Shown here one piece after another: positions 1,614 through 15,200 of a stretch of DNA of 64,000 nt (positions within the stretch are counted from its first letter, which is position 1; every line of letters begins with the position of its first letter). The stretch lies in NCBI GenBank assembly GCA_000004985.1, contig GG738876.1; one strand, given 5' to 3'. The position numbers were made by a program, and so were the translations under genes. The notes beneath the pieces were generated by a model. The model saw nothing but the letters and a program-made list of their open reading frames with translations, had not been told where the DNA came from and did no database searches. This DNA comes from Naegleria gruberi. Taxonomy: Eukaryota.

Positions 1614-3056
1614 TTATTGAGAATTTTGATGTTTCATAACCAAACCATGAATCTTTTTAACTCTCATTTCCTTGAGGAATTCCATCGAAAGTTTGAACCT
1701 GTAATGAGAATCCAACATTACAATTTCAATTTCCTTCTCCAAGAAATCAAACAAATCGTCTGGAAGCGACGAAATTTGACGATTCTTATACAATTCAATT
1801 TGAAACAAAACATCATGTGTGGACTTCTTATCAATATTTACAGATTTAGGGCCATTAACATTCAGGAATTCTTCATATATTTCCTGAGCTAATTGGAATT
1901 TCTTTGCTTCAACAACTTCTAATTCAGTTTCGAGTTCTTGAGTAGTTGAAAGATTTTTCTTTCTCTTGGTTGTTGGTTGACCAACACTGAGAGAAGTATT
2001 GGATTTGGAAGACTGATCAACAACAGAGATGGTGGAAGGAGTTGCGTTATTGGAAACTTCAGATAATTCGAAAGAAACGCTACCTAAACTATTAGAACTT
2101 TCAGTTTCTTCACTCAATGTTTGAACCAATTCAATTTGATATTCACACAATCGCTTGTACTGCTGAACTTTTTCAAGGAATTCAAAGTTTTCAGAGTTAA
2201 ATTCCTTCTTACAATGATTCTTAAAGAGATTTCTCAATCTGTCATTATTCATGGTGTGTGAAATGTCAACTGCTAGTGCTTCTCTTAATTTTTGAACATT
2301 GTTGGAGTCTGATCTAATAGCCAACCCAAAAACAAAGATAATGACTGGAACTGTAACTACAACTGCCAAGCAAATAATTGATAATGAAGTTATGGACATA
2401 GCATTAGTGATTTTTGACACTTGTTCTTGAGAAGCAAGTACATAATCAAGTACAACATCTTGTGCAGTTCTAAAAGTGTTTCTTCTTGCGATATAAGTGG
2501 CGGAAGTAAGCAATCGAACAGCTTCCGTAAAGTTTCCATCTCTAATATTCGAAACAGCTTGAGAATCAGTATCAGTCAAATAATTAACAATTCCCTGCAA
2601 ATTATTTCTATACTGCTGCGAAATACTCTGAGGTATCTTTTGAAGCATATTTTCAGTCAACTCATCATTCACTTTCGAATAATTATTATAATAAGCCAAA
2701 TATCCCTCATTTCCCGAATAGGCAGCCACCAACGTATAAGCTTGAATATAGGCAGTATACGTAGATACCTTCGCTCTAGTAGCCAACAAATCAATATCCT
2801 CATTCATCTGACTATTTTCACTATAAATCAGCAAACCAAGGAGAATGAGGAAAGTAATGGTATTGAGGACCATGGCAACCATTGCAAAGATTTTAATGAA
2901 ATTCAATTCGAGTTTGAAGAAACAGCAGTGGACTGTGAAGGTTTTTGGCTGTTTTTGATGTTTACGAAAGGAATCGTCGAGAGAGGATTGCTGGCGTTTG
3001 AGAGGAGGTGAAGATTCAATGCTTGTTTCGATTGGTTTCTTTGTTTCGTTTTCCAT
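1614..3056 (-). CDS. RGS-domain protein with an N-terminal two-transmembrane sensor-like region
   Basis: The C-terminal half matches the RGS fold. [18 protein letters not shown] matches [41 protein letters not shown] matches [44 protein letters not shown] matches [24 protein letters not shown]. Two hydrophobic helices ([20 protein letters not shown] and [26 protein letters not shown]) flank a predicted extracytoplasmic domain of about 150 aa. Confidence 0.65.
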   Translation of the reverse strand: [480 protein letters not shown]

Positions 3057-3980
3057 TGTGTAAGGTGAGAAGAGATGAATTTGGAGAGAAGTAATGCAAA
3101 TGTGTTGCTTAATTTGTTATTGTTGTTGTGGAGGAGGAGTGAATTTGTTTTTTTCAATGTGGAAATTAATTTTTTAACTTTTTAACATGGAGGTATTAAT
3201 AATATGGTGAGAATGAGGATGAGGATTGTAATTTTGGATTTTATATAATCCGAGGGTCTTTCAACTTACATTCTGGTAATACTTCTCGATATCCTGATAA
3301 AAATCAAAAGATTTAAAAAGTTGACCCCGAGTATCTCTCACACGTATGGAGTCAACTAAGGACTTTCCCAAAATGGATATCAATAACGATGAAAAATTAT
3401 TATACATTCCACATTTGAAAATTGTTGAATTTTATCAGTCTGTTCATTCAGCACGTTTCTTTTATTGTGAAATCCGTTTGTTGACTTTTGGCAGCCAGTT
3501 CTGTAACCAGTATACTTGAGGAGCAGATCATGCACACATAACCATCAAGAATGCAATCTTCGTAGCCGGTGATTATATCCTCAATATTAATAAATGTCAA
3601 GTGCCAATCACAATTTCCAATTCAAGAAAATTACGACAACTAACTTATTTCAAGTATAGAACATGAACATATGGACAGTAAAGTATTGGAGGTAGAATAC
3701 CATACTGTTTAATTTGTACAGCTTTTCATATTAGGACACCTAATTGCTTTTAGTGTAAAACCACATACAATTTCATATCCATAAGTTTCCAACACTTTCA
3801 ACTGTAAATCTTTCAAAAACACATTTGTAAACTGTTTTTTTTACCATCATTCTCCTCTGTTGATTAGTCAAAATCAACTTCACCACATTCACCAATTTCA
3901 TGACAAGTTCCAATCATCACCAACACTCATTGTAATGATGATGAACTATTCTAAAATTTTACAATAATTCAAAAAAAAAA
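3057..3980. promoter_or_regulatory. Divergent intergenic region between the RGS gene (-) and the CTD-heptad protein gene (+). It probably carries a bidirectional promoter.
   Basis: No ORF over 60 aa is present. The region is AT-rich and has an A10 tract immediately upstream of the ATG at 3981. Confidence 0.3.
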
Positions 3981-4970
3981 ATGCAAAATCATACTTCACA
4001 AGTACAGGGTGATTCTTTCTCATTGCCACCTTCTTCATCACCACCACCACCACCACAAGAAGTCTCTACACAACAGCAAACATCGTACTATTCATGGAGT
4101 CCAACTAGTCTTTCAGAAGCTGCCAAACAACAGCAAACAGAGTATTACAGTGGAGGTTCTCCAAGCTATTCACCAACTTCACCGAGCTATTCACCAACTA
4201 CACCCGTCTATGCTCCAACTTCACCAGCATATTCACCAACTTATACTCCAACCTCTCCTTGTTATTCTTATACCTCTCCATATTATAGTACGATTTTTTA
4301 TCTTCCGAGAGAGACAGTGCTGAGTTTTGATTTGGATCAAAGTGTATTGGAAAGGATTGAGAAGGAAACAAGAAATTGGGGAGTGTTGAGGTGGAGAAAT
4401 CCAGAGTTGGGTGAAAGATTTTGGGGACATGTTTATATGAGTGTTGATTCAAAGATTGTGGAAATTATTAGAGAACATTATGGACCGAAGGGATTAATTA
4501 CTAAAGTTAGGGAATTGTTGGGAGAGGTAGGAGAATCGCACTCTACGGTTGAGTATAATGCATTCTTGTTGCCAACACATTTTACTGTAATTGGGAGTAA
4601 GGAGTGGCAACAGGCATTCTTGGGATTGGAGAAGGAGGTTGAGTATTTTACAGTTAAAAATCCTGCAGAAAATGTATTCGAAAGTTCAATTGAGTTTGTG
4701 AATAGTCCATATAAGAGTTATTCAAAATTGTTTAAGGAAGAGAAAATTCAGGAATTGTGCAATTTTACCTATTTTACAAGATCTGGATTTGCAAATTCAC
4801 TTCCCAACGAAATTGTATCCCACATTAAACAATTTCTAATCATTGATCTGAAAGAAAGTGGACGAAAGGTTAAATTCTCAATCACTGGCCAAATTAGTTT
4901 AGTTCCAAGACAGTTTGGAGAAAAGCTTGGTTTCATTCTCCATGTCGATTGTCCAGAAATGAATAATTGA
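3981..4970 (+). CDS. Hypothetical protein with an N-terminal poly-Pro segment and 4-5 degenerate RNA-Pol-II-CTD-like heptads ([31 protein letters not shown])
   Basis: This is a long ORF. The heptad repeats are read directly from the translation. The C-terminal 200 aa are non-repetitive and have no family I recognise. Confidence 0.45.
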
Positions 4971-8235: not shown

Positions 8236-9946
8236 ATGTTTAAAAAAATGAAAAAACAAGTTTCGTCCACTTTCTTACTGGTTATTTATTGTATTTTCGC
8301 TGCTTGTTTCTTGCTCAGTTCTGCTGAAGGATTAGTTCCATCCACACAACCATACTTTTTATGGCCTAATCCACAAACAGGAGAAGCAACAGTTTATTTT
8401 AAAAACGGAGGTTCGAAACCAGTCGAAACTTTGTGGGTTGGTTATGCTGCTTGGAAAGATGCCCCACAAGTTAAAAGCAAAATTTCCAATTTGATTTCAA
8501 GAGGAATTGTTCCATTCATGTAGGTTTTGATTAACTTATTTTATTGGAAATATTATTGGAAAGTCAATCTTATCATTTTGGAGATAATGGACTCAGAGGA
8601 CAATTCGAATTAGCTCTTGCTTTTGATAGAGAAATTGCTAGTGCTATTGGAAACTCTTTTGCCATTGTAAATTTGGAACCAGAATGGGATGTTGATGTTG
8701 TTTTGAATTTATTCAAATCTTCTCAAGGAACTCAATCATTATTGAATAGAATTCAAACATTTAAGAGTCTGGCTCCAAATTCAGTGGTTGTGAGTACTCC
8801 AGGATTGTGGAAATCAGCTCAGGACTATTCATTCTTTAGCTCTGTAGATTCCAAATTGAATGCTCGTGCCATGTTGATGCATGTTGTGAATTCTGGAGAT
8901 GCATCATGTGCTAAGAAACAAGATGGATCATTGTGGCCATATGGTGTAAAATCTTTGAGTGAGGGAATTTCAATGGTCAAGAGTAAGATTGATGAAAATT
9001 TGAACAAGATGACACAAGCTTGGGGTGGTTCTTTACCATTTGAGTGGATTTTGAGTGATGTTGGTGTTACTAGTTGTGGATGGGGAGCTGATGGACAAGC
9101 TGCTATTGTTAATGAATTGATTAAGGTGAGTAATTTTTTATATAACAATGAATATTCGAATTATTGAAATATTGTGGAATTATTTATAATATCAGAATTT
9201 GGATTGTTTATATGCTAGTGGATTCCGTGGATTTAATTTGAGAAATTCAGGTCCATCTGATTTATGGGAAAGAGCTATGGGTATCAACAATGAAGGAATG
9301 TTCACATTCACCACAAGTGCAGCAACCATGAATGTTATTAAAACTGGATTGACCAAGGTTAATGCATTCCTTGTCAATGGCCAAAAACCTTCATGCTCTT
9401 CAAATAATGGTGGATCAAATTCTGGTTCAACTTCCTCATACAAGGTCAATGTCATTAGTGGAAGTAATGATTGGTGGACTCAAATTGAAGTTTTGCCAAC
9501 TTCATCTGTTCAAACAGTTGTCTTGAAATGTGGATCTGCATCAACTTCATTGGAAAGACCAGCTTGGTCCCAAACTCAATTTGTCAAAGGACTTTCCGCA
9601 CAATGCCCAATGGGATCAGATATTCAAGTTATTGTCAACTCAAAATATACCTATCCTATCAAGTATACTGTTGGAGCTAGCTCTGCAAATACTCTCAGCG
9701 ATATGCCACCTCTATTCCAAAATTCTCCAACCAAATANNNNNNNNNNNNNNNNNNNNNNNNNNNNNNNNNNNNNNNNNNNNNNNNNNAGTTTGAAGCAAA
9801 TTAGTGAAAATACTTGGGAAGGTGAAATGCAAAATGGTTTTTGCCCAATTGGTGCCAATGTTCAATTGTTTGTAGTGTTGAGAAATGGACATGTTGAAAG
9901 ATATGATATTATTTATGGTTATGATAATGTTGCCAGATTGTATTAA
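8236..9946 (+). CDS. Secreted multi-exon protein, TIM-barrel-hydrolase-like, with a putative C-terminal carbohydrate-binding beta-domain. Exons are 8236-8519, 8564-9125 and 9196 to beyond 9737, then a gap, then up to 9946.
   Basis: A signal peptide is present (MFKKMKKQVSSTFLLVIYCIFAACFLLSSAEG). Intron 8520-8563 has a GTAGGT donor and a GAAAG acceptor. Intron 9126-9196 has a GTGAGT donor and an ATCAG acceptor. Both restore the frame across the track ORFs. An NLEPEW motif is reminiscent of a clan GH-A acid/base residue. The C-terminal W- and G-rich region (DWWTQIEVLPTSS...VVLKCGS) looks like a binding module. The frame across the 9738-9787 N-gap is arbitrary. Confidence 0.4.
9738..9787. other. 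Assembly gap (50 N)
   Basis: A run of N is present in the sequence. Confidence 0.99.
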
Positions 9947-9991: not shown

Positions 9992-11323
9992 CTATTGGTA
10001 TGTCTCATCAATTGGTGAAATGCATGTTTCATGTTTCTTCCCAAACAAAAAACCAATTGTTTCAAAGACAGTCGCAAGAGTAACAGGTGCAAATGTGAAA
10101 TAAGAACAATGACCACAACCAAGTATTGCCAAACTGACACCTAAAGCAAAACGAGACAGTCCAAAAAAACCTACTTTAAGTTTCTCCTTAATATATAGGG
10201 CATTCACTTCCCAACTATCGGCCAATAGTGTGACTGCTATTGGAAGAGCACTCAAACATCCACCTCCCAATTTATAACACGACACTCCCAAGAATAGGGA
10301 TATTATATAATTTGATAGTAAGCTTTGGATAGTAACTGTTGGTGGCACAATCATTTTGAAAATCTTTTTCAACTCACTGATGCTTACAACTCCCAAATAA
10401 ATCCAAATTGGGAAGGAAAGATAATAATTGATCGTATTTACAAGTATATGGGAATAGCTCATCTCAATTCCAAGTATACTATACAGTAATGACTTTACAG
10501 AATACATTCCATATCCATTAAATAGTAGAATGAGTCCAGCAAATACAGGTATTGCCAAATTGGCAACGAATAAATTGACATCCTTATGAAATTTAGTGGT
10601 AAATCTATGAATATTCAATTTTCTCAATATTCCAATCCCTCTTAATAGTGAAAATGCTGTAAATCCACACCAAACACCTCCCAATAGAGTTTGCACGACG
10701 GCAAAGCAATACGGAATCCACCAAAACACTCCATTCCAATCTTTTTCACCAACCTGGTTACTGGAATACTGTCCAACACAAACCTGAGCAGCAATACTCA
10801 TCAATGTGAGTATCACACCAAACAGTACAGTTGGATCTCTCTTTGCCACACGTGCAATCAGCTCCTGAACTTTTCTATCAAAAGCAGAAAATTTAACATC
10901 CATTCTAGCAAAATAAAAAGCATTCACCAATTTCTCCTTTGAATTCAGTGCCATTCTACATTCCTCTCTCTTCTCCTCCTCACTTTTAATTTGCCTCTCT
11001 ATTATGGTGGCAGTGGAGGAGGAGGCGGTCCAGTAATCTCTCACCAAATCATAGATGGTTCCAAATGGTCGTTTTATCAATTTTTCAAATAAGAAACCCC
11101 TTCTCAAGTATTCACTTGTTTCAATCTTGATCATCTCGAATAGATTTATCGATTGATCATCATTTGTACTACTATTACTTGTATTGGAGAGAGAATTTTC
11201 AACAAGTTTTTCAAATCTCCGACAAGTATGAGATAATATGATTAAATCTCTTGGATTCCGAGAGGTAAAATTCAATATGGTGAGGAGCATTTCATCAGGC
11301 AATTCGAGTAGTGGTTGCTTCAT
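9992..11323 (-). CDS. F-box protein fused to a polytopic, roughly 8-TM, membrane domain
   Basis: N-terminal PDEMLLTILNFTSRNPRDLIILSHTCRRFEKLV is a clear F-box. The C-terminal 270 aa contain many hydrophobic helices (VLFGVILTLMSIAAQVCVG, WIPYCFAVVQTLLGGVWCGFTAF, LAIPVFAGLILLFNGYG and others). Confidence 0.55.
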   Translation of the reverse strand: MKQPLLELPDEMLLTILNFTSRNPRDLIILSHTCRRFEKLVENSLSNTSNSSTNDDQSINLFEMIKIETSEYLRRGFLFEKLIKRPFGTIYDLVRDYWTASSSTATIIERQIKSEEEKREECRMALNSKEKLVNAFYFARMDVKFSAFDRKVQELIARVAKRDPTVLFGVILTLMSIAAQVCVGQYSSNQVGEKDWNGVFWWIPYCFAVVQTLLGGVWCGFTAFSLLRGIGILRKLNIHRFTTKFHKDVNLFVANLAIPVFAGLILLFNGYGMYSVKSLLYSILGIEMSYSHILVNTINYYLSFPIWIYLGVVSISELKKIFKMIVPPTVTIQSLLSNYIISLFLGVSCYKLGGGCLSALPIAVTLLADSWEVNALYIKEKLKVGFFGLSRFALGVSLAILGCGHCSYFTFAPVTLATVFETIGFLFGKKHETCISPIDETYQ

Positions 11324-11444
11324 TTTTTTTTGCTATTGTATGAACTTGTAAAGTTTACAATATTTTAAATATTTATTAAATATAATTAAATTCAATTATC
11401 CATATTAATACAAAAGAAATAATTTTTTAAATTAAAAAAAAAAA

Positions 11445-12275
11445 ATGGCCACACGTTCCGTGATGAAAATATTCATGAAGAGTTATATGCAATTTGCAAA
11501 TCGATACTATGTACCTTTCATGTTCAGGTTTGCATTGAAAAAGGCTTTGAAATTTGATCCGAATGTGATGAGTGGTCGACAATTATTGAAAGATATCAAG
11601 GATGAACAGGATATTTTGCTCCGATCACAAACTACAAGGAGTTTCATGGAGAAGGAAGCTCGTGAGAGGAATATGACTGATGATAGTTGGTTGCCTTTGG
11701 TTTGTCAATATATTGCATCGAATAAGGTGTTGGCTAGGGGGTTATTTGAAGGTGATGAAGCAAAAGCCATGTTGTATATTAATGATAGAGCTATTTCACC
11801 TCCTGTGGAAAGAATGATGCAATTGGTTTTGGGAAAAAAGAATCAGAAAGGTTTACTAGGTGGAATGTTATTTAGAAAGGATGAACAGAATGAAAATTCG
11901 GATGTTTTGGGAAATATGTGGACATTGATGTGTGTTACAAATGAAATGTTGCAATGTTGGATATTATCTCACGAAATTTATAATGAAATTTCTGAGCAGG
12001 ATGGTCATGTACATAGGGTATCTTCAATTAAGGTTCACGACTGTATGCTCAATAGATTTTTCAGAGAGCATGAGGCAACTCATTTGATGCCAGTAATTTG
12101 CTCTTTTGACTCTGTGTGGGCTAGGAATGCTTTTGAGAATACTGGATACAAATACAGAAGAAATCAAACACTCAGCTTGGGAGGAAATCATTGTGCGTTT
12201 GATTTTTCGAAAGGTTTCGAAGAGAATGAGAAGGATGTAGTATTGGATGAATTGGAAAAAATAAGAAAACAATAA
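11445..12275 (+). CDS. Hypothetical protein
   Basis: A 276-aa ORF with coding-like composition and no family I recognise. Confidence 0.35.
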   Translation: MATRSVMKIFMKSYMQFANRYYVPFMFRFALKKALKFDPNVMSGRQLLKDIKDEQDILLRSQTTRSFMEKEARERNMTDDSWLPLVCQYIASNKVLARGLFEGDEAKAMLYINDRAISPPVERMMQLVLGKKNQKGLLGGMLFRKDEQNENSDVLGNMWTLMCVTNEMLQCWILSHEIYNEISEQDGHVHRVSSIKVHDCMLNRFFREHEATHLMPVICSFDSVWARNAFENTGYKYRRNQTLSLGGNHCAFDFSKGFEENEKDVVLDELEKIRKQ

Positions 12276-12287
12276 TGAAAATGACAA

Positions 12288-15200
12288 TTAATTTAATTTG
12301 TTCTTTTCCATTTCACTTTTAAGGATATTGGCCAACTTGTAAATATCAGGAAGTTGGAGATTTTGCTGTATCTCTTGAGGTATGTTTAGGGAGTAGTTGT
12401 CCTCGTGATTGTAAGAGTTGTTAAATAAATTATTTGGGTGTGACTGAAATTGAATACTTTCAAATAATTGGTTAGATCTTCTTTGCTTGAACAGTTCCAT
12501 TCTTTCAATAAGATAGGCATACTTATCATTTCCGTATCTATCTTTCCATGTATTTAGCGCATTAATATCCAAATCTATCATATCCAAGAGTTGCTGCTCG
12601 AATTGTGATATAACTTGTTTGTGAGCTAATGGATTTTGAATATCTTGTGCACTGAAAGTTGAACCAAAGTAATTTGAAAGCTCCAAAGTTTCTACAATGG
12701 AAGCAAATGGAAGTTGTGAAATTTCTGAAAGTGCCTCCAACAATTCTAAATGAACCTCAGCCGCACTCGCAACTGAATTCATCAAGTTTGGTTTCAACAA
12801 TTCAAAATTCTCAATAGTGGTACATTTTGTAACAACATTGGAGAGTTTTAAAATTTCAGAATTGAGAAAATGTAAAACTCCCTTATTTGTCATTGTGGAA
12901 TTAGGGGAGGAGTTCTTTTGGGTTGCTTTGGTCTTTCTGTATACTTCCTTAACAAGGAATAACTTGGTACCAAAGACAAACAAGTTGAAAATACACAAGG
13001 CCAATGGTAGCTGTAAATCATTGAATTTTCTTCTCTTTTCATGTTCTCTGTAAATCTTGGAGAGGTTATCGATTATTTCCATGTATGAGGATAGATTGTC
13101 TAGGGTTGGTTGTACCTCTGTTAACATGTGAAGTACATGCTTAGGGATTCTGCCTGTGATATATAAATGCATATCAGCCAAAATTTTACAAAAGTAAGAA
13201 CTGAAAGAATATCTCTTGAAATTGGATGAGTCCATCTTTACAAGTCCATCAGAGAGATGAAAAGTACCCTCTGGACTGACTTTACCCAACAGTGACAAGT
13301 CATTTGATGTTTCTGGTGATTTGATAGCAAATGGTGGATCGATACGTAACATGACAGGATATTGATCCTTGCCACATGCATCAAGAGTAATTCCACACAA
13401 AATTCTAAATTTGAGCAATTTAAAATCAGCCTCCTTTGGAAGTCTCTCATAAATGTGACGAGTAGGTGATGATTGAGTATTTCGAAGTAAGAGCTCAGTT
13501 GAATTAATTCCCAAATTTTGCATAATATTCTTAATATTAGGATCGTCAGCATGTTTGGTCATTAAATCCCTCAAAGAATTATCATTTGAATCTATTACAT
13601 ATTCTTCCAGTCTATCAAAGTCAATCTTGTGTCTATTTCCAAAGTAAAAATCAACAAAGTTCAAATAAAATTTTGCTGTATCAGAATCTCCCTTGCTTGC
13701 GCAATAAACAGACAAATGACAATATGTAGTAGCAACCAAAATATTTGACCAAGAATCAAAGAAATTAGCAAGGCAATTCTTTGCCTTTTGGAATGATAAA
13801 AATCCCTGTTGATCGTGTCCCAATGCCTGACAAGTTACAGCATGAATAGAGTATAACAGAGAAAGAATTTCAGGAGAGTAGTTTGAATTACTGTCAATAC
13901 TTTCGCTCTCAAATAAAGCTTGCTCTATTAAATTAATGTCTACAAGTGAATATCCTAGAGAAATTACTCCTTCATAAAGTTCAATAGTTTTCTTCCTATA
14001 AGCAGCAATATTCAATTTTTCAGCAATTTGATTTTGGAAAAATGGTAATTGTGAAGTGTTTGATAGCATTTCAGTCCAGTTAATTCCATGTTGATCCAAA
14101 TTATTTGAAAATCCCATTTGTGAGGCAAGAATTCGTTTAAGCTCATCTGTAAACTCTAAATGAACATCATTATTCTTACTTGTTTGTGGATATGGTTGAT
14201 ATCTAGAGTTATTGCTGTTGTTTGTAGTTGCTACCACTGTTGTTGATGAACTAGCTTTGGCTGATTTAGTATTTGATTGATTATTATGTCTTCCCTTCTT
14301 TTTTGGTGACCTGTAAAGACAATCAACACCTCTTTTTGTGCATTGCGAACAAGAAGGCCACATTTTATCACACTTTAAAGTAATAAATATTAATTTGTTG
14401 TTAAATTGTTATTCACTTACCTTTTTGTGCCTACTTCTGCAGTTAACACAAGCAATTGGGAAATACATCTTCTCAGGATCTTGATTCAACTCGAGTGAAC
14501 CAGGATGTGGCACGTGTTCATCTTGATTATTATCCATAGGCTTTTCTGTCAAACTTCCATTACTGCTGCTTGTAATCATTTGGTTATCATTTAAATTGGT
14601 AACATCCAAACTAGGGTTTTGGTTATTATTATTAAACATATTGGATGAATTAGATGTCGTTACTGTTGTTGGTTGAAGAGTGTTAATGATTTGTTGTAGT
14701 ATCTCATCGTTTGAATTATTCATATTTACTGTTGATACATTGTCGTTCGGTTTCATATAATTATTTACATCAGAAAGTAATAATTGTGTCATATTATCCA
14801 TATTATTGTTGTTATTCATATTATTGTAATTGTTATTATTATTATTAGAAGGGAAATATTGATTTGTTGATTGTAACAATTGGTTTAAATCGAGATTATT
14901 CAATAAATTATTATTAGTGGAGGGGTTTGGTTGATTAATGGCTTTAGGAGTTTGTAATCCCATCATTAAATTTTGAACAATACTTGATGAATCCATAGTA
15001 CGAGAATTTAATTGACCATTTGATGTTGATGATGGAATTAAGTTATTGTTACTACTTGAATATTCTCCACCATTTTGCTGTTGTTGTTGTTGAGAGAATA
15101 ACAAATTGATGAGCATATCCTGTTGATTGTTTGTTGTATTCATCATTGATTGTCCTCCAACAGTGTTATTATTATTGCTTTGATTTGTTTTAAAGGAGGA

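What the first reader, a model, noticed from the sequence alone, without database searches (positions are those of the whole stretch)
9992..11323. F-box fused to a polytopic membrane domain
F-box proteins are normally soluble SCF substrate adaptors. Here a canonical F-box is followed by about 8 predicted TM helices. This implies an integral-membrane SCF adaptor, for example for quality control of membrane proteins, or a transporter-like domain recruited to ubiquitin ligase.
Basis: partly seen in the sequence, partly recalled or inferred. Interest (0 to 1): 0.55.

Follow-up and report, generated by a model that had tools for sequence, protein, structure and literature searches.

The report
F-box protein with eight membrane helices
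A Naegleria gruberi gene really does encode, in one reading frame, a ubiquitin-ligase docking motif (F-box) followed by about eight membrane-spanning helices; it belongs to a tiny, uncharacterised family, and its role as a membrane-embedded ligase adaptor is plausible but untested.

Summary
Window 9992-11323 (-) is one uninterrupted 443-codon ORF. It is identical to Naegleria gruberi NAEGRDRAFT_69101 (XP_002675804.1), which is annotated only as "F-box domain-containing protein".

- **F-box:** residues 5-44 pass both Pfam F-box cut-offs.
- **Membrane part:** a 120-residue charged linker is followed by eight hydrophobic segments. The Lys+Arg counts of their loops alternate, which predicts N-in/C-in topology with the F-box in the cytosol.
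- **No split:** no stop or plausible intron separates the two parts.

The membrane domain matches no Pfam family and no solved-structure sequence, and the AlphaFold models were unusable. An exhaustive search of 1.84 billion proteins found only two weak relatives. One is a broken, collinear copy on a metagenome contig.

A second group of environmental eukaryotic genes has the same layout: a related F-box, a basic linker and eight helices. It is under strong purifying selection (omega about 0.05) in both halves. Its membrane domain is not demonstrably homologous to this one.

The best reading is a membrane-embedded SCF substrate receptor, or a Skp1-tethered membrane protein. Only the architecture is shown; the function is inferred. 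I rate it a new variant of a known kind, of moderate interest.

The parts
9992..11323 (-). Complete single-exon gene, 443 aa plus stop. It equals N. gruberi NAEGRDRAFT_69101 / XP_002675804.1 / UniProt D2VJN3.
   Evidence: ORF list. 100% identity over 443 aa.
11192..11311 (-). F-box, aa 5-44: LLELPDEMLLTILNFTSRNPRDLIILSHTCRRFEKLVENS.
   Evidence: Pfam PF12937 28.2 bits and PF00646 21.5 bits, both above their cut-offs. Translation checked. 45% identical to the F-box of the clade B proteins. hhalign probability 94%.
10829..11191 (-). Soluble linker, aa 45-165. It has a Ser/Asn-rich insert followed by a charged, predicted-helical region, with motifs L-R-x-G, RPFxTxY and SKxKLV shared with relatives.
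   Evidence: Alignment with L001 and P0003. Shuffle z = 6 against L001. No Pfam or solved-structure match.
10772..10828 (-). TM1, aa 166-184 (KD 2.22). Predicted signal-anchor with the N-terminus in the cytosol.
10652..10708 (-). TM2, aa 206-224 (KD 1.59), preceded by the conserved WWIPY motif.
10523..10579 (-). TM3, aa 249-267 (KD 2.24).
10379..10435 (-). TM4, aa 297-315 (KD 1.27, weaker).
10283..10339 (-). TM5, aa 329-347 (KD 1.44, weaker). It has no counterpart in L001.
10214..10270 (-). TM6, aa 352-370 (KD 1.42, weaker). Only 4 residues separate it from TM5, suggesting a helical hairpin.
10118..10174 (-). TM7, aa 384-402 (KD 1.71).
10043..10099 (-). TM8, aa 409-427 (KD 1.57), carrying the motif FAPVTLATVFETIG.
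9995..10042 (-). Short C-terminal tail, aa 428-443, predicted cytosolic.
11324..11444 (.). 121-bp AT-rich spacer shared with the divergently transcribed neighbour (11445-12275, +). Presumed bidirectional promoter region. An in-frame stop lies upstream of the ATG.

Best explanation
SHOWN: this is a real, single-exon N. gruberi gene. Its product has a cytosol-facing N-terminal F-box, a roughly 120-residue charged helical linker, and a C-terminal domain of about eight membrane helices of unknown fold (predicted N-in/C-in). It belongs to a very small family restricted to a few eukaryotic lineages. A second group of environmental eukaryotic genes carries a closely related F-box on the same F-box, basic linker and 8-TM layout, and keeps both halves under strong purifying selection.

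INFERRED: the F-box docks Skp1, and through it Cul1-Rbx1, onto a membrane. The polytopic domain acts as anchor and recognition module, so that neighbouring or bound membrane proteins are ubiquitinated on their cytosolic faces. That would make it a membrane-embedded CRL1/SCF substrate receptor, the cullin-RING counterpart of the transmembrane RING ligases. The linker would act as the spacer that soluble F-box proteins have between the F-box and the substrate-binding domain.
For: - **One gene:** a continuous 443-codon ORF (chance about 3e-15), identical to the deposited model.
- **F-box:** above both Pfam cut-offs.
- **Membrane helices and topology:** eight hydrophobic segments with alternating Lys+Arg counts of 27/1/6/1/3/1/3/0/2, and no N-terminal signal peptide, so the F-box is predicted to be cytosolic.
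- **Collinear relative:** a broken copy on metagenome contig L001 (TM z = 16-20, linker z = 6).
- **Second group (clade B):** L002/L003 and P0005 are intact 461- and 483-aa ORFs with an F-box (31 bits), a basic linker and eight strong TM segments showing the same charge alternation. Their F-box is 45% identical to this one (E 5e-8; hhalign 94%).
- **Selection in clade B:** dS 0.21 and dN 0.010, with omega about 0.05 in both the F-box/linker half and the TM half. The F-box is the best conserved part between species: 78%, against 43% for the TM domain.
- **Precedent:** SCF acts at a membrane through a membrane-localised F-box protein in the case of FBXL4 (PMC10308361).
Against: - No experiment or computation here tests Skp1 binding, and the F-box score is only a few bits above threshold.
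- The membrane domain has no recognisable relatives or fold. The structure models were useless (pLDDT 38 and 36).
- Three of the eight helices are only marginally hydrophobic.
- The closest full-length relative (L001) looks like a pseudogene. It has two frame breaks, a degenerate F-box and one helix missing.
- The exhaustive search found no further relative, for example from another sequenced Naegleria species, so the gene may be dispensable.
- Homology of the TM domain to clade B is not statistically supported, so the shared architecture could be convergent.
- F-box proteins can also act without cullin (Rcy1, RAVE, Ctf13; established knowledge).
Confidence: 0.5

Rival explanations
1. Skp1-binding membrane protein that does not work as an SCF ligase. 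In one version the F-box recruits Skp1 alone, as in yeast Rcy1 (endosomal recycling) or the RAVE complex. In another it serves mainly as a built-in instability element, so that the membrane protein's own abundance is set by autoubiquitination. The eight-helix domain would then be the functional part, for example a channel, receptor or scaffold.
For: The F-box is the most conserved part in clade B, while the TM domain evolves quickly. This fits a conserved docking function with a lineage-specific membrane function. No substrate-binding domain of a known kind is present. Non-SCF F-box proteins and autoubiquitination of F-box proteins are established knowledge.
Against: Nothing distinguishes this reading from the SCF-receptor reading with sequence data alone. 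The membrane domain matches no channel or transporter family and has no internal repeat.
Confidence: 0.22
2. Evolutionary oddity with a decaying or non-functional F-box. On this reading it is a young, lineage-specific membrane protein that picked up an F-box exon by shuffling, with little or no ubiquitin-related function in N. gruberi.
For: Only two weak relatives turned up among 1.84 billion representative proteins. The F-box score is marginal. The L001 relative has lost a recognisable F-box and is frame-broken.
Against: The N. gruberi F-box still passes both curated cut-offs. Its relative P0003 scores 38 bits. Clade B keeps the F-box at 78% identity with omega 0.05. The ORF is intact in an AT-rich genome.
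Confidence: 0.15
3. Gene-model or assembly artefact: two separate genes (F-box and membrane protein) wrongly joined.
For: In contig L001 the two parts lie in different frames and were called as separate genes. An assembly gap (N run, 9739-9787) lies nearby.
Against: There is no stop in 443 codons, and the gap lies about 200 bp outside the gene. The linker is conserved. Four independent intact single ORFs have the same layout elsewhere. No plausible intron lies between the parts.
Confidence: 0.03

Closest known systems
Soluble F-box substrate receptors of SCF (Skp2, Fbw7, beta-TrCP; Pfam PF00646/PF12937)
   Same: An N-terminal F-box of about 40 residues with the LP-D/E-E-hLL-I ... L-S-x-x-C-R-R-F pattern, followed by a linker and a C-terminal module that would confer specificity.
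   Different: The C-terminal module is not LRR, WD40, Kelch or FBA. It is a polytopic membrane domain of about 260 residues and eight helices, with no detectable family.
FBXL4, an SCF receptor localised to the mitochondrial outer membrane (PMC10308361)
   Same: An F-box protein that works at a membrane and targets membrane proteins (NIX, BNIP3) there.
   Different: FBXL4 is localised by an N-terminal targeting sequence and recognises substrates with soluble LRRs. Here the F-box is N-terminal and the whole C-terminal half is embedded in the membrane. No sequence relationship was found beyond the F-box.
Lipid-anchored F-box proteins (human FBXL2, yeast Rcy1, Legionella AnkB; from my own knowledge, not tested here)
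   Same: The F-box is held at the cytosolic face of a membrane.
   Different: Those use a C-terminal CaaX prenyl anchor. This protein ends in ...DETYQ, with no CaaX, and is predicted to span the bilayer eight times.
Transmembrane RING E3 ligases (Hrd1, Doa10/MARCH6, MARCH family; review PMC4021871)
   Same: The inferred logic is the same: a polytopic membrane part places a cytosolic ubiquitin-ligase module next to membrane substrates.
   Different: Those carry the catalytic RING themselves. This protein would have to recruit Skp1-Cul1-Rbx1 through its F-box. There is no sequence similarity.
HIV-1 Vpu with beta-TrCP (PMC2170451)
   Same: A membrane protein bridges membrane substrates to SCF.
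   Different: Vpu is a single-pass adaptor that binds a separate soluble F-box protein. Here the adaptor and the F-box would be one polypeptide.

Membership tests
F-box protein superfamily (Pfam PF00646 / PF12937) | Sequence match to the F-box profile above the curated gathering score | tested here: met
   PF12937 28.2 bits against 24.3. PF00646 21.5 bits against 20.5, aa 5-44. Relative P0003 scores 38.0 and 25.5. Clade B scores 31.3.
F-box protein superfamily (Pfam PF00646 / PF12937) | Three-helix F-box fold | tested here: inconclusive
   The AlphaFold2 model predicts helices at 10-19 and 25-47, but pLDDT is below 50 throughout. The only F-box hit among solved-structure sequences is FBXW7, at E = 0.32.
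F-box protein superfamily (Pfam PF00646 / PF12937) | Direct binding to Skp1 | not testable with these tools
   No complex prediction or experiment was available.
SCF (CRL1) substrate receptor | Assembly with Cul1-Rbx1 and substrate ubiquitination | not testable with these tools
   Requires biochemistry. That Naegleria has Skp1 and cullins is assumed from general knowledge and was not verified here (one search was uninformative).
Integral polytopic membrane protein | Several hydrophobic segments of about 19 residues or more with Kyte-Doolittle mean near or above 1.6 | tested here: met
   Five segments at 1.57-2.24 and three at 1.27-1.44. Seven of the segments are conserved in L001.
Integral polytopic membrane protein | Loop charges that follow the positive-inside rule | tested here: met
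   Lys+Arg counts are 27/1/6/1/3/1/3/0/2. Clade B proteins show a similar alternation: 29/0/2/2/4/0/2/0/1 in P0004 and 36/0/2/2/6/1/5/1/0 in P0005.
Any known transporter, channel or receptor family | Profile or sequence match of the membrane domain | tested here: not met
   No Pfam hit at E <= 10. No match to solved-structure sequences with a profile at E <= 10. No internal duplication. Fold comparison was impossible (pLDDT 36).
Prenyl-anchored F-box proteins (FBXL2 / Rcy1 type) | C-terminal CaaX box | tested here: not met
   The C-terminus is ...SPIDETYQ.
Proposed 'F-box-8TM' family including clade B (L002/L003/P0005) | Homology along the full length, not only in the F-box | tested here: inconclusive
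   The F-box match is significant. The TM domain match is not (z 0.4-1.1; hhalign). A motif in the last helix gives z = 3.0 against P0004 but only 1.3 against P0005. Helix number, spacing and topology agree.

The most novel reading that the evidence does not exclude
N. gruberi and at least two other uncultured eukaryotic lineages share an ancient, fast-evolving family of integral-membrane SCF substrate receptors ('F-box-8TM'). These would recognise clients inside the bilayer through the eight-helix domain and hand them to Skp1-Cul1-Rbx1. That would be a cullin-RING route for membrane-protein turnover, parallel to the transmembrane RING ligases and not described in any model organism.
Probability: 0.3. 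Interest if true: 0.7.

Novelty: new variant of a known kind. Interest (0 to 1): 0.5.

Why it matters
F-box proteins are among the best studied ubiquitin-ligase adaptors. The characterised ones I know of are soluble or only peripherally anchored. Membrane-protein ubiquitination is attributed mainly to transmembrane RING ligases.

A polytopic F-box protein would show that cullin-RING ligases can also be built directly into a membrane. It would also give a simple, testable system: one intronless gene, with an obvious L8/P9 mutant.

A phrase search of about 8 million open-access papers found no mention of transmembrane or membrane-spanning F-box proteins. The practical weight is limited, for three reasons. 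The family is tiny. It appears to be missing from other sequenced Naegleria species. Nothing is known about substrates or localisation.

Tried and rejected
1. **Structure prediction.** The full protein modelled alone gave pLDDT 38. The TM domain with its only usable relative gave pLDDT 36. Both models are unusable, so no fold search was run.
2. **More relatives.** The word-index search found only the protein itself. Two profile searches added only clade B. Exhaustive phmmer found two weak hits. Viral contigs gave none.
3. **RGS domain in the linker.** Weak phmmer hits to RGS17 (E 0.16 and 0.55) disappeared with a three-sequence profile, and Pfam showed no RGS match. I rejected this as chance.
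4. **TM-domain homology between N. gruberi/L001 and clade B.** hhalign and shuffle tests do not support it.
5. **Internal 4+4 duplication of the membrane domain.** None was found.
6. **Synteny between the window and clade B contigs.** None beyond the F-box.
7. **Paralogues in the window.** None.
8. **Source organisms of JAESGV01, GCA_041447055.1, ERZ27245887 and 3300061908.** No paper mentions any of them.
9. **Literature on Naegleria SCF components.** Uninformative. The TMEM183A lead (a human 'transmembrane' protein listed among ubiquitin-related genes) could not be tested, because I did not have its sequence.
10. **Hidden intron between the two parts.** The only GT...AG candidate in the Ser/Asn-rich insert is about 10 nt, too short to be an intron. 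I rejected this.

Full report
**Source and gene**

The window is AT-rich eukaryotic DNA, about 34% G+C. The ORF at 9992-11323 on the minus strand is 443 aa. It is 100% identical over its full length to Naegleria gruberi NAEGRDRAFT_69101 (EFC43060.1 / XP_002675804.1 / UniProt D2VJN3), on a 397-kb scaffold, named only 'hypothetical' or 'F-box domain-containing protein'.

An open frame of 443 codons has a chance probability of about 3e-15 at this composition. An in-frame stop lies just upstream of the ATG. A 121-bp AT-rich spacer separates the gene from a divergent neighbour. An assembly gap (N run, 9739-9787) lies about 200 bp beyond the stop codon and does not touch the gene.

**Checking the observation**

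Residues 5-44 (LLELPDEMLLTILNFTSRNPRDLIILSHTCRRFEKLVENS) match Pfam F-box-like at 28.2 bits (cut-off 24.3) and F-box at 21.5 bits (cut-off 20.5). The match is real but not strong. A Ser/Asn-rich insert follows where helix 3 normally continues.

No TM predictor was available, so I used Kyte-Doolittle 19-residue windows. The N-terminal 165 residues are hydrophilic and carry no signal peptide. From residue 166 to 427 there are eight non-overlapping hydrophobic segments:

| Helix | Residues | KD mean |
|---|---|---|
| TM1 | 166-184 | 2.22 |
| TM2 | 206-224 | 1.59 |
| TM3 | 249-267 | 2.24 |
| TM4 | 297-315 | 1.27 |
| TM5 | 329-347 | 1.44 |
| TM6 | 352-370 | 1.42 |
| TM7 | 384-402 | 1.71 |
| TM8 | 409-427 | 1.57 |

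Counting Lys+Arg in the N-tail, the seven loops and the C-tail gives 27/1/6/1/3/1/3/0/2. This is a clean positive-inside alternation. It predicts that both ends, and hence the F-box, face the cytosol.

**Is it one gene?**

There is no stop. Both the F-box frame (validated by Pfam) and the TM frame (validated by protein-level similarity to a relative, see below) are the same frame. The linker between them is itself conserved. The only GT...AG candidate in the low-complexity insert is about 10 nt. The fusion stands.

**Relatives**

The word-indexed search of 5.8 billion proteins found only the protein itself. An exhaustive phmmer scan of 1.84 billion cluster representatives found just two weak hits:

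- **P0002** (E 1.8e-5) aligns to residues 175-418, the membrane domain.
- **P0003** (E 5.7e-5) aligns to residues 3-112, the F-box plus linker.

P0003 is a 150-aa product on a 597-bp contig of assembly GCA_041447055.1. It has a good F-box (38 bits), but the contig ends about where TM1 would begin, so it says nothing about the fusion.

P0002 lies on a 1,580-bp ENA metagenome contig, L001. Immediately upstream of it, on the same strand, is an ORF that aligns collinearly with the N. gruberi F-box and linker. By shuffle tests the TM domains are clearly homologous (z = 16-20), and so are the linkers (z = 6).

The L001 copy looks like a pseudogene or an error-laden assembly, for three reasons:
- It needs two -1 frame corrections, near positions 283 and 700, to read through.
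- Its N-terminus no longer scores as an F-box.
- It lacks the counterpart of TM5.

It still shows that the order F-box, linker, membrane domain predates the split from N. gruberi.

**A second group with the same layout**

A pattern scan of JGI metagenome contigs, followed by a profile search, recovered what I call clade B. It consists of two 95%-identical contigs, L002 and L003 (JAESGV010001452/1125, a 461-aa ORF at 2965-4350), and a 52%-identical orthologue, P0005 (483 aa, JGI 3300061908). P0005, like L002, has a G-alpha gene downstream.

These are intact single ORFs with three parts:
- an F-box (PF12937, 31.3 bits);
- a 150-180-residue Lys/Arg-rich linker;
- eight strongly hydrophobic segments, with a similar alternation of loop charge and similar spacing.

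Their F-box is 45% identical to the N. gruberi one (BLASTP E 5e-8; hhalign probability 94%). It shares the unusual P-x-D-L-I-x-L-S-H-x-C-R core.

Between L002 and L003, dS is 0.21 and dN is 0.010. Omega is about 0.05 in both the F-box/linker half and the membrane half. Between P0004 and P0005 the F-box is the best conserved part: 78% identity, against 59% for the linker and 43% for the membrane domain. In that clade, then, the fused protein is a functional gene and its F-box is under the tightest constraint.

The membrane domains of clade B and of N. gruberi/L001 are not demonstrably homologous. Shuffle z is 0.4-1.1, and hhalign finds nothing beyond the F-box. Two motifs line up at equivalent positions. 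One is W-[WL]-[IL]-P-[YF] after TM1. The other is F-[AT]-P-[VL]-T-L-(S)-A-T-x-F-x-x-I-G in the last helix. The second reaches only z = 3.0 against P0004 and 1.3 against P0005.

I consider common descent with rapid divergence of the membrane part more likely than convergence, because the architecture is so rare. This is inference, not a result. No relatives were found in viral contigs. There is no synteny with the window and no paralogue in the window.

**What the membrane domain is**

It remains unknown. There is no Pfam match at E <= 10 for N. gruberi, L001 or clade B. A profile found no match to solved-structure sequences. There is no internal duplication. Both AlphaFold2 models had pLDDT below 40, so a fold search would be meaningless and was not run.

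A weak resemblance of the linker to RGS17 vanished on profile testing. The 'transporter-like' label has no support.

**How it most likely works**

*Shown:* the architecture, the predicted topology, conservation of the layout, and purifying selection in clade B.

*Inferred from established knowledge of F-box proteins:* the cytosolic F-box binds Skp1 and thereby recruits Cul1-Rbx1-E2 to the membrane in which the eight-helix domain sits. That domain would act as anchor and recognition surface, so that bound or neighbouring membrane proteins are ubiquitinated on their cytosolic parts. The charged helical linker would play the spacer role that linker helices play in Skp2, Fbw7 and beta-TrCP.

Two observations fit a conserved docking module coupled to a fast-evolving specificity module. 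In clade B the F-box is the slowest-evolving part. The membrane part diverges beyond recognition between clades.

*Rivals:*
- a Skp1-binding but cullin-independent role (Rcy1 or RAVE type), or an F-box that mainly sets the protein's own turnover;
- a decaying, functionless F-box on a young orphan membrane protein;
- a gene-model artefact, which is essentially excluded.

Sequence data alone cannot separate the first rival from the main reading.

**Comparison with what is known**

- **Membership:** it is a member of the F-box superfamily by the profile criterion. Skp1 binding and SCF assembly could not be tested.
- **Prenyl-anchored F-box proteins:** it is not one of these, because it has no CaaX.
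- **FBXL4:** it is unrelated beyond the F-box. FBXL4 is the best experimental precedent for an SCF receptor resident on a membrane (PMC10308361).
- **Functional analogues:** it would resemble transmembrane RING ligases (PMC4021871), or a one-polypeptide version of Vpu plus beta-TrCP (PMC2170451).
- **Literature:** a phrase search for 'transmembrane F-box', 'membrane-bound F-box', 'membrane-spanning F-box' and similar found no paper in about 8 million. Surveys of F-box families that I opened do not list such a class.
- **Untested lead:** human TMEM183A appears in ubiquitin-gene lists and may be a distant analogue. I could not test this.

**Verdict**

The architecture recurs and is selected for in a second clade, and I found no characterised protein with it.

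The protein itself is already in the databases with an automatic F-box label. The family is tiny and patchy, and the nearest full-length relative is a pseudogene. Every functional statement is inference.

I rate it a new variant of a known kind (an F-box protein with a novel, membrane-embedded C-terminal module). Interest is 0.5. I put the probability of the stronger reading, an ancient family of integral-membrane SCF receptors, at about 0.3.

Noticed in passing
window 9739-9787: A run of N (scaffold gap) interrupts the plus-strand ORFs 9199-9804 and 9530-9946, about 200 bp 3' of the F-box gene. The downstream neighbour's model is therefore incomplete.
   Followed up: partly
window 8236-9804 (+): Three consecutive plus-strand ORFs (8236-8523, 8544-9167, 9199-9804). 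The first begins with a signal-peptide-like MFKKMKKQVSSTFLLVIYCIFAACFLLSSAEG. They are probably exons of one secreted protein. The two larger ORFs have no significant Pfam family.
   Followed up: no
window 12288-14363 (-): A 691-aa ORF starts in the middle of a fungal-type Zn2Cys6 motif (CSQCTKRGVDCLY). Zn_clus scores 15.2 bits, below the cut-off of 21. An upstream exon is probably missing from the ORF. A Zn-cluster regulator in a heterolobosean may merit a look.
   Followed up: no
window 11445-12275 (+): The divergent neighbour, 276 aa, has an ATC_hydrolase-like C-terminus (PF14196, 42 bits). It shares a 121-bp AT-rich spacer with the F-box gene.
   Followed up: no
L001 134-206 and 254-1508: A tRNA-Lys(UUU) gene lies just upstream of the homologue. 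The homologue needs two -1 frame changes (near 283 and 700) in what appears, from its k141 contig name, to be a short-read MEGAHIT assembly, and it lacks one helix. Pseudogene, assembly error or recoding was not resolved.
   Followed up: partly
L002 4724-5062 (-) and L004 5867-6806 (-): In both clade B species a G-alpha gene lies convergently just downstream of the F-box-8TM gene. This is conserved local synteny of unknown significance. There is no equivalent in the N. gruberi window.
   Followed up: partly
L002 versus L003 (whole loci): Two contigs from the same WGS project carry 95%-identical copies of the same gene neighbourhood (dS 0.21). They could be divergent haplotypes, two strains or a recent duplication of an unidentified eukaryote.
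   Followed up: partly
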